Virus record (IMG/VR): IMGVR_UViG_3300025751_000015
Location: 1-64,000 of that record
DNA from: a virus
Taxonomy: Duplodnaviria; Caudoviricetes
Strand: one strand, 5' to 3'
DNA length: 64,000 nt
Below, one piece after another: positions 13,700 through 15,036 of the stretch. Each line of letters begins with the position of its first letter. Positions within the stretch are counted from its first letter, which is position 1. The translations under genes and the position numbers were made by a program. A model generated the notes under the pieces. That model searched no databases, had not been told where the DNA came from, and saw only the letters and a list, made by a program, of their open reading frames with translations.

Positions 13700-13943
13700 A
13701 ACACCTTATAAAACTGATAGCCGTGGCAATTCAGTTGAAGGTGGTGCTTTAAATGCGAATTACACGACCGTAGACGCAGTCGCGAAAGTGTGTAATACAC
13801 TTGGTATTCATGGCTACGTTTACGGTCGTGATTTTATTTGGAAAGATCAAGGTTGGACAGATGACATGGATGATGCTATACTAATATCATATGATGATGT
13901 TAGAATTTTAACACTATTAGGGTTGGCAAATAAAAATGGCTAG
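13668..13943 (+). CDS. Hypothetical protein (probable GTG start inside the 13518..13943 frame)
   Basis: Fills the gap to the glycosyltransferase; GTG 13668 is in frame; start uncertain. Confidence 0.45.
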   Translation: MVLKIAEHSTRTPYKTDSRGNSVEGGALNANYTTVDAVAKVCNTLGIHGYVYGRDFIWKDQGWTDDMDDAILISYDDVRILTLLGLANKNG

Positions 13944-15036
13944 AATTTGGTTAATAGATTTAGAAAGTGTAGAAACACGCTACACTAAAGAGTGGAAAAC
14001 GTATTTTCCTGCATTACTACGCAAAAAAGGACATGAAGTTTTTGTTATTGCAGGACCTACGGATATTCCGAACGCAACCACTCCAGGTGCCTTTTTAAAC
14101 TTTGGTGGTACTAACATCTACAAAGCCAATCAAGTAGAACAAATTAGTAGAGCATTTACAACAGGTAAAGTACAAAATGGTGATCACATTATTTTTACAG
14201 ATGCATGGCATCCGGGTATTATTAATATCAAATACATGAGTGAACTTTTAGGTATTAAAGTTACTACACACGCACTTTGGCATGCTGGCAGTTATGATCC
14301 ACAAGACTTCTTAGGTAGACTAATTGGTAATGCAAGTTGGGTTAGACACGCTGAAAAAAGTTTCTTTCACAGTTATGATCACAATTACTTTGCAACAGAG
14401 TTTCATGTAAAACTATTCTTTGACGAATTATTAAATGACGGCATACCTGCAGAAAATCCTTGGTATGGTGAAATGTGGGAAGAACGTTATAGCAATGGTA
14501 AAATTGTACGTTGTGGTTGGCCAATGGAATACGAACGTTTAGAATTAGAACCGTTTAAAGGAATGAAGAAACGTGATTTAATTTTATTTCCTCATCGTGT
14601 TGCTCCAGAAAAACAACCTGAAATATTTCAAGACCTAAAACAAGCACTTCCACAATATGAGTTTGAAGTGTGTATGGAAAAGAATTATCAAAAGAAAGAA
14701 TACTACAATGCACTAGGTGAAGCGAAACTAGTGTTTAGTGCTAACCTACAAGAAACATTAGGTATTAGTTGGTATGAAGGTGCCCTTGTTGGTACATTAC
14801 CTTTGGTTCCAGATCGATTAAGTTATACCGAAATGGAGAACACAGGAAGATTTATATATCCAAGCGAATGGACAGAATCGTTTAGTGCTTATAAAGAAAA
14901 CAAGGACAAGATAATCGAAAGAATTATTTTCTTAATGGAAAACTACAACGACTTTCTTGTAGACCTAAATAAACTTACTACTCATTTAAATGAAAACTAT
15001 TTTAGTTGCAAAAATTTACTTGAGAAGTTACAATAA
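13936..15036 (+). CDS. GT-B fold glycosyltransferase (GT4-like)
   Basis: C-terminal domain ILFPHRVAPEKQP ... FSANLQETLGISWYEG matches the GT4 R...K and E.FG...E signature; N-terminal WHAGSYD. Confidence 0.75.
   Translation: MARIWLIDLESVETRYTKEWKTYFPALLRKKGHEVFVIAGPTDIPNATTPGAFLNFGGTNIYKANQVEQISRAFTTGKVQNGDHIIFTDAWHPGIINIKYMSELLGIKVTTHALWHAGSYDPQDFLGRLIGNASWVRHAEKSFFHSYDHNYFATEFHVKLFFDELLNDGIPAENPWYGEMWEERYSNGKIVRCGWPMEYERLELEPFKGMKKRDLILFPHRVAPEKQPEIFQDLKQALPQYEFEVCMEKNYQKKEYYNALGEAKLVFSANLQETLGISWYEGALVGTLPLVPDRLSYTEMENTGRFIYPSEWTESFSAYKENKDKIIERIIFLMENYNDFLVDLNKLTTHLNENYFSCKNLLEKLQ

What the first reader, a model, noticed from the sequence alone, without database searches (positions are those of the whole stretch)
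13936..15036. GT-B glycosyltransferase embedded between QueD-like and folE genes
Seen: the glycosyltransferase sits inside the deazaguanine operon, immediately upstream of folE. Known: T-even phages use GT-B enzymes to glucosylate hmC in DNA. Inference: this enzyme glycosylates the 7-substituent (carboxyl, amide or aminomethyl) of the inserted deazaguanine, a guanine analogue of glucosyl-hmC. No hmC synthase is visible in the window.
Basis: partly seen in the sequence, partly recalled or inferred. Interest (0 to 1): 0.7.

Follow-up and report, generated by a model that had tools for sequence, protein, structure and literature searches.

The report
Sugar transferase inside phage deazaguanine genes
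A fragment of an uncultured giant marine phage carries an intact sugar-adding enzyme wedged among the genes that swap guanine in DNA for 7-deazaguanine. The same pairing recurs in unrelated phages and in bacterial chromosomes, so a sugar-bearing purine in DNA, which I found in no paper, is a reasonable prediction that cultured phages could test.

Summary
ORF 13936-15036 (+, 366 aa) matches no Pfam, PHROG or NCBIfam model on its own. Its AlphaFold model (pLDDT 94.8) is nevertheless a clear GT-B, GT4-like glycosyltransferase, with the EX7E motif and the Arg/Lys phosphate binders intact.

It lies between DpdL (13076-13459, a QueD paralogue with the LxxxHRHxF motif) and FolE. The same co-oriented block holds a divergent TGT/DpdA (9044-10498), a YhhQ-like transporter and QueE.

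Homologues sit next to a DpdA-like gene, DpdL or both in nearly every locus with enough flank. These include the phages PA5oct, Phosso, ACP17, BUDD and BCSR5, metagenomic phages, and alphaproteobacterial chromosomal islands. Among 11 cultured lineages, all six with the transferase have this long DpdA clade, and the five DpdL phages without the transferase lack that clade.

The proposed acceptor is not. Complete relatives have no QueC, so an amide or aminomethyl group is unlikely, and DpdL may remove the carboxyl. The enzyme shows no sequence-level relation to T4 AGT/BGT or to QTMAN.

I could not decide whether the sugar goes onto DNA or onto the free base. This scan has flagged the same theme on many other genomes. 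I found no paper that describes it.

The parts
13936..15036 (+). GT-B, GT4-like glycosyltransferase (the finding), 366 aa
   Evidence: AF2 model pLDDT 94.8. Foldseek and VIA-align place it with BshA, MshA, PglA and sucrose-phosphate synthase, Z 21-25.6. E273/E281 (EX7E), R221 and K226 are 96-100% conserved in 60 homologues.
13076..13459 (+). DpdL, a QueD/T-fold paralogue and proposed 7-carboxy-7-deazaguanine decarboxylase
   Evidence: phrog_17812 at E 1e-32. The LxxxHRHxF motif is as defined in PMC10516641. 30-69% identical to the DpdL of phiST, ACP17, PA5oct and Phosso.
9044..10498 (+). Divergent TGT/DpdA-like base-exchange enzyme (long clade, 484 aa)
   Evidence: Invariant DSGGxQ, D145, QG194-195, HxLG259-262 and D292 in 23 homologues. 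40 of 41 weak PDB profile hits are tRNA-guanine transglycosylases aligned over positions 94-254. It clusters with the BUDD gene annotated as queuine tRNA-ribosyltransferase.
10696..11223 (+). Conserved unknown ('p195') between DpdA and DpdL
   Evidence: Present in the marine phage clade and in ACP17. AF2 pLDDT 79 with no clear fold match, best Z 6.8.
11198..11755 (+). HxD...H oxygenase-like ORF, clade-specific insert
   Evidence: Found only in the closest relatives L006, L007 and L022. No family hit. The motif was read from the sequence.
11713..12990 (+). Class III (PLP) aminotransferase, clade-specific insert
   Evidence: Pfam Aminotran_3 at E 6.5e-28. Found only in L006, L007 and L022.
13466..13699 (+). 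Small conserved ORF (77 aa) between DpdL and the transferase
   Evidence: Homologues at the same position in L012, L030 and L034. An RBS-like AAGGAG lies upstream.
15076..15762 (+). FolE, GTP cyclohydrolase I
   Evidence: Pfam PF01227 at E 2e-40; phrog_2197 at E 3e-46.
15778..16434 (+). YhhQ/Vut_1-like queuosine-precursor transporter
   Evidence: Pfam Vut_1 at E 3.3e-20. A family with a weak Vut_1 match (checked in one member, L055) lies just upstream of the transferase, between it and DpdA where DpdA is upstream, in 18 bacterial loci.
18332..18892 (+). Phosphoribosyltransferase-domain protein, travels with the cluster
   Evidence: Pfam Pribosyltran at E 8e-9. Conserved in PA5oct, L032, L034 and the marine clade.
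20761..21192 (+). HIT-like protein, travels with the cluster
   Evidence: An HxHxH-type motif is seen in the sequence. Conserved in the marine clade.
21243..22136 (+). QueE-like radical SAM enzyme (CDG synthase)
   Evidence: NCBIfam QueE models at E 8e-10 to 1e-7, below their cut-offs. Homologous to the annotated QueE of PA5oct, ACP17 and BUDD. A 12/12 consensus promoter-like site lies at 21196-21224.

Best explanation
The gene encodes an active GT4-like (probably retaining) glycosyltransferase that serves as a dedicated tailoring enzyme of a DpdA-based 7-deazaguanine DNA-modification system.

Proposed pathway:
- FolE, QueD (outside this fragment, or supplied by the host) and QueE make 7-carboxy-7-deazaguanine from GTP.
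- DpdL processes that product.
- The long-clade DpdA exchanges guanine in DNA for the deazaguanine base.
- The transferase moves a sugar from a nucleotide-sugar (identity unknown) onto the deazaguanine unit. This happens either on the base already in DNA or on the free base just before insertion. The phage DNA then carries a sugar-decorated deazaguanine that shields it from host nucleases.

Shown: the fold, the conserved donor-site residues, the identity of the neighbouring genes, and the gene linkage. Inferred: the acceptor, the donor, the order of steps, and that the final product is in DNA.
For: Fold and catalytic motifs.

Neighbours identified.

Linkage in phages of different backbones:
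- ACP17: DpdA-GT-DpdL-QueE.
- BUDD: GT-DpdA-DpdL-QueE.
- BCSR5: GT-DpdA.
- PA5oct: DpdA-GT-DpdL.
- Phosso: DpdL-GT-FolE.
- Metagenomic loci L035, L038, L085 and L087.

Linkage in bacterial chromosomes without phage genes around: 28 of 30 loci have DpdA adjacent, 18 have DpdL, and 18 have a transporter-like (weak Vut_1) family just upstream of the transferase.

Presence and absence among cultured lineages: 6 of 6 with the transferase have the long DpdA clade. 0 of 5 DpdL phages without the transferase have it.

PA5oct DNA resists G-containing restriction sites, and its chemistry has not been identified (PMC12191111).

Cui et al. could not obtain dDG from ACP17 dpdA plus dpdL alone (PMC10516641). 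The transferase gene lies between those two genes.

The family's nearest ESM Atlas clusters are 95-100% viral where taxa are recorded.
Against: - No chemistry has been measured.
- If DpdL decarboxylates CDG, 7-deazaguanine has no obvious O or N handle at C7. The sugar would then need the carboxylate (before DpdL acts), a ring carbon, or another atom.
- Some bacterial islands have the transferase and DpdA but no DpdL, so the acceptor cannot depend on DpdL.
- Net charge does not point to DNA binding. Median pI is 5.7. This test proved uninformative, because T4 AGT has pI 6.1 and the DpdA clade 5.9.
- Five DpdL phages do without the enzyme.
- The best structural matches all act on small molecules.
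- Many of the phage loci belong to one marine clade and are not independent.
Confidence: 0.55

Rival explanations
1. The enzyme glycosylates a soluble deazapurine or pterin that never enters DNA. Candidates are CDG, 7-deazaguanine or a tetrahydropterin intermediate. The product would be a small-molecule glycoside, such as a storage or export form, an antimetabolite or a signal.
For: HuiG glycosylates a nitrogen of a free 7-cyano-7-deazapurine with UDP-GlcNAc in huimycin biosynthesis, and that BGC family's glycosyltransferases carry Pfam PF13439 (bioRxiv 10.64898/2026.04.15.718813). The pterin glucosyltransferase BGluT (5zes) is among the GT4 structural matches, Z 21.0 over 285 residues. All top structural matches take small acceptors. 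A transporter-like gene sits next to the transferase in bacteria.
Against: BGluT does not stand out from dozens of GT4 enzymes with the same Z. The tight and near-exclusive linkage is to DpdA, a polymer base-exchange enzyme, and not to the biosynthetic genes: bacterial islands keep GT plus DpdA without FolE or QueE nearby. The secondary-metabolite clusters of that preprint were prioritised when dpdA hits were absent, and known BGCs lack nucleic-acid-incorporation hits.
Confidence: 0.17
2. The acceptor has nothing to do with deazaguanine. It could be a protein (for instance DpdA or a virion protein), a lipid or a cell-envelope sugar. The gene would then merely share an early or middle transcription block with the replication and modification genes.
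For: GT4 enzymes act on very diverse acceptors. The cluster sits inside the replication module (polymerase, clamp, RNase H), where unrelated genes accumulate. A distant homologue in PhiXhv-12 lies about 95 kb from that phage's DpdA, next to GlmS, a PIG-L deacetylase and a Gfo/Idh/MocA oxidoreductase.
Against: The adjacency survives changes of gene order, of phage backbone, and a move into bacterial chromosomes where no replication module is present. Genes overlap or abut in several loci. Even PhiXhv-12 has the same DpdA clade in its genome.
Confidence: 0.1
3. A T4-like enzyme that glucosylates hydroxymethylated pyrimidines in DNA.
For: GT-B fold. A cyanophage 'DNA alpha-GT' appears at rank 36 of the viral fold search, E 1e-6. 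Phosso and PA5oct have a ThyA-family gene.
Against: No ThyA-family gene in the complete genomes of ACP17 and BUDD, nor in this 84-kb fragment. Profile comparison with T4 AGT and BGT gives probability 1.4% and 0.4%. The ThyA-family hits in Phosso and PA5oct are strong matches to the general thymidylate synthase model, which also covers dCMP hydroxymethylases: T4 gene 42 is annotated under that name.
Confidence: 0.03

Closest known systems
DpdL/DpdA3 system of Cellulophaga phage phiST, which gives 2'-deoxy-7-deazaguanosine (Cui, Hutinet et al., NAR 2023, PMC10516641)
   Same: FolE, QueE, DpdL with the LxxxHRHxF motif, a TGT-superfamily base-exchange enzyme, and no QueC.
   Different: phiST has no homologue of this transferase. 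Its DpdA3 is short (259 aa) and is not matched by the profile of the long DpdA clade found here. This cluster adds the transferase, p195, a phosphoribosyltransferase and a HIT protein.
T4 alpha- and beta-glucosyltransferases (DNA hmC glucosylation)
   Same: GT-B fold. A phage enzyme next to base-modification genes. A presumed role in protecting DNA.
   Different: No sequence-profile relation. Neither is among the 50 best rows shown by either PDB fold search. No hydroxymethylase partner is required. The base concerned would be a purine analogue.
HuiG, the huimycin glycosyltransferase acting on a free 7-deazapurine base
   Same: A glycosyltransferase (the huimycin BGC family carries the GT4-type PF13439 domain) that puts a sugar on a preQ0-derived 7-deazapurine made by FolE/QueD/QueE-type genes.
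   Different: HuiG belongs to an actinobacterial secondary-metabolite cluster without dpdA and acts on a free base nitrogen. I could not fetch its sequence, so no direct comparison was made. Only 5 of 60 family members here touch PF13439, and weakly.
QTMAN/GTDC1, the tRNA-queuosine mannosyltransferase
   Same: A GT-B enzyme of the GT4 type (from my own knowledge, not checked here) that glycosylates a 7-deazaguanine derivative inside a nucleic acid.
   Different: The defining QTMAN_N domain is not detectable here. QTMAN uses the cyclopentenediol hydroxyls of queuosine, which this pathway cannot make.
Bacterial Dpd restriction-modification system (dpdA-K)
   Same: DpdA-type insertion of a deazaguanine into DNA. 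Chromosomal islands. A nuclease-like gene next to the cassette in Magnetospirillum.
   Different: No DpdB or DpdC was identified in the loci I examined, though I did not search for them by profile. The partner is a glycosyltransferase, with or without DpdL and a YhhQ-like transporter.

Membership tests
GT-B fold, GT4-like glycosyltransferases (Pfam Glycos_transf_1 clan) | Two Rossmann-like domains with an interdomain cleft | tested here: met
   AF2 pLDDT 94.8. VIA-align Z 25.6 (rmsd 3.2, 318 aligned) to 6kih and Z 24.8 to BshA 6n1x. Foldseek E 6.5e-11.
GT-B fold, GT4-like glycosyltransferases (Pfam Glycos_transf_1 clan) | EX7E motif and basic residues that bind the nucleotide diphosphate | tested here: met
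   E273 (96%) and E281 (100%), R221 (98%), K226 (96%) in 60 homologues.
GT-B fold, GT4-like glycosyltransferases (Pfam Glycos_transf_1 clan) | Score above Pfam's gathering threshold for PF00534 | tested here: not met
   P0001 scores 11.7 bits against a cut-off of 26.4. 46 of 60 family members match at E<=1, best 3e-8. It is a divergent branch, recognised by fold.
GT-B fold, GT4-like glycosyltransferases (Pfam Glycos_transf_1 clan) | Retention of anomeric configuration; identity of the donor | not testable with these tools
   Needs enzymology.
T4 AGT (GT72) / BGT (GT63) DNA glucosyltransferases | Sequence-profile homology to AGT or BGT | tested here: not met
   hhalign probability 1.4% (AGT) and 0.4% (BGT).
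T4 AGT (GT72) / BGT (GT63) DNA glucosyltransferases | Partner dCMP/dUMP hydroxymethylase in the genome | tested here: not met
   No ThyA-family match in ACP17 or BUDD (complete genomes), nor in this fragment.
QTMAN/GTDC1 | N-terminal QTMAN_N domain (PF12038) | tested here: not met
   No match at E<=10 in six-frame searches of this record, Phosso, PA5oct, ACP17 and BUDD. It is not among the 25 families shown (of 40 matched) in the scan of 60 members.
HuiG-type deazapurine glycosyltransferase | Homology to HuiG and activity on a free 7-deazapurine | not tested
Only the paper's description was used.
Phage DpdA/DpdL 7-deazaguanine DNA-modification system | TGT-superfamily base-exchange enzyme | tested here: met
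   DSGGxQ and four further invariant positions. 40 of 41 PDB profile hits are TGTs, all weak at E 0.03-0.5. No hit to Pfam TGT itself.
Phage DpdA/DpdL 7-deazaguanine DNA-modification system | DpdL with LxxxHRHxF in place of the CxxxHGH of QueD | tested here: met
   Motif present. Definition taken from PMC10516641.
Phage DpdA/DpdL 7-deazaguanine DNA-modification system | FolE, QueD and QueE present, QueC absent | tested here: inconclusive
   FolE and QueE are present. Neither QueD nor QueC is in the 84-kb record, which CheckV rates 24% complete. The complete relatives Phosso, PA5oct and ACP17 have QueD and no QueC.
Phage DpdA/DpdL 7-deazaguanine DNA-modification system | Modified guanine actually present in DNA | not testable with these tools
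   Only indirect evidence: PA5oct DNA resists G-site restriction enzymes (PMC12191111).

The most novel reading that the evidence does not exclude
These phages, and a set of alphaproteobacterial islands, carry a glycosylated 7-deazaguanine in their DNA. That would be the first sugar-bearing purine-type base in any genome. It would be made by a GT4-like enzyme co-evolved with a distinct long DpdA clade. The sugar is either added to the free base, with the DpdA clade adapted to insert a bulky glycosylated base, or attached after insertion by chemistry not yet seen for this fold (an acyl-glycoside on the 7-carboxylate, or a C-glycoside on the pyrrole ring). In the sub-clade of this window, the extra oxygenase-like gene and class III aminotransferase might further convert the sugar into an amino sugar.
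Probability: 0.4. Interest if true: 0.85.

Novelty: new variant of a known kind. Interest (0 to 1): 0.68.

Why it matters
All DNA glycosylations described so far are on hydroxymethylated pyrimidines. A glycosylated deazaguanine would add a new chemical class of DNA hypermodification. It would bear on restriction, CRISPR and glycosylase-based defence, and on sequencing and enzymology of modified DNA.

It may also explain two open observations. The guanine modification of the therapeutic jumbo phage PA5oct is still unidentified. The ACP17 dpdA plus dpdL pair failed to yield dDG in E. coli.

The family is abundant. The answer would therefore apply to a large share of marine and soil jumbo and T4-like phages. 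It is directly testable, because at least five cultured phage groups carry the gene.

Tried and rejected
- **Family libraries on the single protein.** Pfam, PHROGs and NCBIfam gave nothing. Only the fold and the family profile identify it.
- **Megablast of the region against phages.** No match.
No PF12038 signal.
- **T4 AGT/BGT.** No profile relation.
- **Net charge as a test for a DNA acceptor.** Uninformative. The family is acidic (pI 5.7), but so are T4 AGT (6.1) and the DpdA clade (5.9), while T4 BGT is 9.05.
- **Fusion partners.** No homologue of 642-2000 aa was found (weak evidence).
- **p195.**
  - Fold searches gave only noise-level matches: best Z 6.8, with three QueE structures at Z 5.6-5.8 over 94-125 residues.
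  - hhalign against the QueE family gave probability 0.6%, and the PDB profile search gave nothing. A 'stripped QueE' reading is therefore not supported here.
  - p195 is not the same family as the roughly 180-aa gene found upstream of the transferase in bacteria.
- **8xsg, the best PDB sequence hit.** It is a glucoside-glucosyltransferase of Actinobacillus minor and says nothing about the acceptor.
- **Supplement of the Cui paper.** It is not held, so their DpdA and DpdL protein lists could not be checked.
- **Literature searches for a glycosylated deazaguanine in DNA.** None found.
- **Promoter and terminator scans.** Not above shuffles.
- **The search for related loci with the 60-sequence alignment.** It failed for lack of a conserved stretch, so a 12-sequence alignment was used instead.
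Full report
**What the window is.** The window is the first 64 kb of an 84-kb IMG/VR viral contig that CheckV rates 24% complete. GC content is about 35%, and genes on the + strand run to about 32.4 kb. Family B polymerase, sliding clamp, RNase H-like exonuclease and the modification genes are syntenic with the jumbo phages PA5oct and Phosso; the polymerase is about 49% identical. The contig is therefore a fragment of an uncultured jumbo phage of that wider group.

**The observation.** ORF 13936-15036 (+) encodes 366 aa.
- On its own it matches nothing in Pfam, PHROGs or NCBIfam.
- With 60 diverse homologues as alignment, AlphaFold gives a confident model, pLDDT 94.8 and pTM 0.91.
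- Foldseek and VIA-align place the model among GT4-type GT-B enzymes: sucrose-phosphate synthase, BshA, MshA, PglA, glycogen synthase and PimA. Z runs from 25.6 to about 21 over 285-320 residues.
- The family profile hits a solved glucosyltransferase at E 1e-5 (8xsg, Actinobacillus minor). 46 of the 60 members touch Pfam Glycos_transf_1.
- The EX7E pair (E273, E281) and R221/K226 are 96-100% conserved. So is a set of acidic and aromatic residues in the N-terminal (acceptor) domain.
- The enzyme looks catalytically intact. 'GT-B glycosyltransferase' is confirmed.

**The neighbours.**
- *DpdL.* The 'QueD-like' gene upstream is DpdL. It matches phrog_17812 and has L-G-Y-P-H-R-H-I-F where QueD has CxxxHGH. 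That is the signature given by Cui et al. for the proposed 7-carboxy-7-deazaguanine decarboxylase (PMC10516641).
- *Small ORFs.* Two small ORFs lie between DpdL and the transferase. One of them (13466-13699) is conserved in more distant loci.
- *Downstream.* FolE and a YhhQ/Vut_1-type transporter follow. Further on come a phosphoribosyltransferase-domain protein, a HIT-like protein and a QueE-like radical SAM enzyme.
- *DpdA.* The 484-aa protein at 9044-10498 has no Pfam TGT hit. In an alignment of 23 homologues it keeps an invariant DSGGxQ plus four further invariant positions. 40 of its 41 weak PDB profile hits are tRNA-guanine transglycosylases aligned over the catalytic core. Its BUDD homologue is annotated as queuine tRNA-ribosyltransferase. 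I read it as a divergent, long DpdA.
- *QueC and QueD.* No QueC is present here or in the complete genomes of Phosso, PA5oct and ACP17. QueD lies elsewhere in those genomes.

- *Cultured phages.* The homologue always sits in the deazaguanine cluster, in changing order. PA5oct has DpdA-GT-DpdL, ACP17 has DpdA-GT-DpdL-QueE, BUDD has GT-DpdA-DpdL-QueE, BCSR5 has GT-DpdA, and Phosso has DpdL-GT-FolE.
- *Viral contigs.* In 29 IMG/VR loci the same block recurs, but most belong to one marine clade.
- *Divergent metagenomic members.* Members at 31-35% identity again lie beside DpdL and a DpdA-like gene. In L085 the partner DpdA-like gene has a DSGAF-type motif.
- *Species genomes.*
  - A scan of genome contigs gave 39 loci.
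  - Eight (L046-L053) look like phage contigs binned into MAGs.
  - About 30 are on bacterial contigs, several of them large chromosomal ones. The genera include Pelagibacterium, Devosia, Ochrobactrum, Aurantimonas, Methylobacterium, Shimia, Sulfitobacter and Magnetospirillum.
  - In these, DpdA is adjacent in 28 of 30 and DpdL in 18. A transporter-like family (weak Vut_1 match) lies just upstream of the transferase in 18. FolE and QueE are not nearby.
  - The surroundings are bacterial. Pelagibacterium has a resolvase, RTX and ABC genes. Magnetospirillum has a two-component system, a HEPN protein and a CoiA-nuclease-like gene directly upstream.
- *Cultured lineages compared.* Six with the transferase (Phosso, PA5oct, ACP17, BUDD, BCSR5, and PhiXhv-12 with a distant copy) all have the long DpdA clade. 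Five DpdL phages without the transferase (phiST, RHph_I1_18, Ahp1, Bakedbeans, D479) have no match to that clade.
- *Caveat.* The sample is small and not fully independent. Even so, the enzyme tracks a particular DpdA clade and not DpdL or the biosynthetic genes.

**What it most likely does.** The linkage argues that the acceptor is the deazaguanine unit handled by this DpdA. The chemistry is open.
- If DpdL is a decarboxylase, as proposed but not demonstrated, the carboxylate is lost too.
- Some bacterial islands lack DpdL, so the acceptor cannot depend on it.
- Two routes remain. The sugar may go onto the base in DNA, as in T4. Or it may go onto the free base, which a specialised DpdA then inserts.
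- The second route has a precedent. HuiG glycosylates a nitrogen of a free 7-cyano-7-deazapurine with UDP-GlcNAc. It would also explain why a separate long DpdA clade travels with the enzyme.
- The position I tentatively equate with TGT's base-recognition aspartate (D145) is invariant in this clade. This suggests to me that the 2-amino face of the base is free at insertion. That favours a sugar on the pyrrole side. This is inference only.
- Deacetylase genes next to two distant members hint at an N-acetylhexosamine donor in some lineages (Polysacc_deac_1 in L038; PIG-L with GlmS in PhiXhv-12). Nothing comparable is in this window.
- Here, and only in the three closest relatives, an HxD...H oxygenase-like ORF and a class III aminotransferase are inserted between p195 and DpdL. 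They could tailor the sugar or the base further. This is speculation.

**Comparisons.**
- The enzyme is not a member of the T4 AGT or BGT families.
- It does not need a hydroxymethylase.
- It lacks the QTMAN_N domain.
- The nearest described system is the phiST-type DpdL/DpdA3 pathway, which lacks this enzyme.
- PA5oct has an unidentified G modification.
- Cui et al. failed to obtain dDG from ACP17 dpdA plus dpdL. The transferase gene lies between those two genes, so a missing partner is a plausible reason.

**Novelty and prior notes.**
- I found no paper describing a glycosylated deazaguanine in DNA.
- This scan has flagged the same theme many times on other genomes: 388 notes hold the search words.
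- Those notes agree with what I tested here, except the QTMAN assignment, which did not hold for this family.
- I class the finding as a new variant of a known kind of system. It has a real chance of revealing a new class of DNA base modification.

Noticed in passing
window 10696-11223: A conserved unknown protein of about 175 aa ('p195') sits between DpdA and DpdL in the marine clade and in ACP17. AF2 pLDDT is 79 and no fold match exceeds Z 6.8. Three QueE structures appear at Z 5.6-5.8, but profile comparison with QueE gives 0.6%.
   Followed up: yes
window 11198-12990: An HxD...H oxygenase-like ORF and a class III aminotransferase overlap each other. They occur only in this contig and its three closest relatives, as an insert in the modification cluster. 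They may perform further tailoring, such as forming an amino sugar or an aminomethyl group.
   Followed up: partly
window 13466-13943: Two small ORFs lie between DpdL and the transferase. The 77-aa ORF 13466-13699 is conserved in L012, L030 and L034. The 141-aa TTG ORF 13518-13943 overlaps it in another frame, and probably only its C-terminal part is real.
   Followed up: partly
window 18332-18892 and 20761-21192: A phosphoribosyltransferase-domain protein and a HIT-like protein travel with the cluster in PA5oct and the marine clade. They hint at a nucleotide-level branch (base plus PRPP) beside the DpdA base exchange.
   Followed up: no
L044:6221-7372 (Vibrio phage Bakedbeans gp176) and L085:578-1645: DpdL occurs as the C-terminal domain of proteins of 355-383 aa. 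The N-terminal parts have no Pfam hit (checked for L044) and do not match each other or, for L085, the long DpdA profile.
   Followed up: partly
L076:8330-14059 (Magnetospirillum aberrantis) and 11 other bacterial loci: In Magnetospirillum a CoiA-nuclease-like 519-aa gene precedes GT-DpdL-DpdA-QueD. A histidine kinase family is conserved beside the cassette in 12 bacterial loci and a LuxR-type regulator family in 14. The arrangement looks like a regulated restriction-modification-like island.
   Followed up: partly
L041:4669-8755 (Xanthomonas phage PhiXhv-12): A distant homologue of the transferase sits in a GlmS, PIG-L deacetylase, GT, Gfo/Idh/MocA block, about 95 kb from that phage's long DpdA and its FolE. 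It may be a sugar-donor and tailoring module.
   Followed up: partly
window 42170-56116 (- strand): A single ORF of 4648 aa lies among tail and baseplate-like genes (a Collar domain protein is nearby).
   Followed up: no
window 2348-3385 and 4223-4762: A TauD-family dioxygenase and a Methyltransf_24 protein lie upstream of the polymerase. A link to the modification pathway is possible but was not examined.
   Followed up: no
L046-L053 (genome contigs): Contigs assigned to MAGs of Crocinitomicaceae, Neomarinimicrobiota, Fischerella, Methanobacteriota, Legionellales and Pacearchaeota carry the same phage block (p195, PRTase, HIT, FolE, QueE). They are probably phage contigs mis-binned into those MAGs.
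   Followed up: partly
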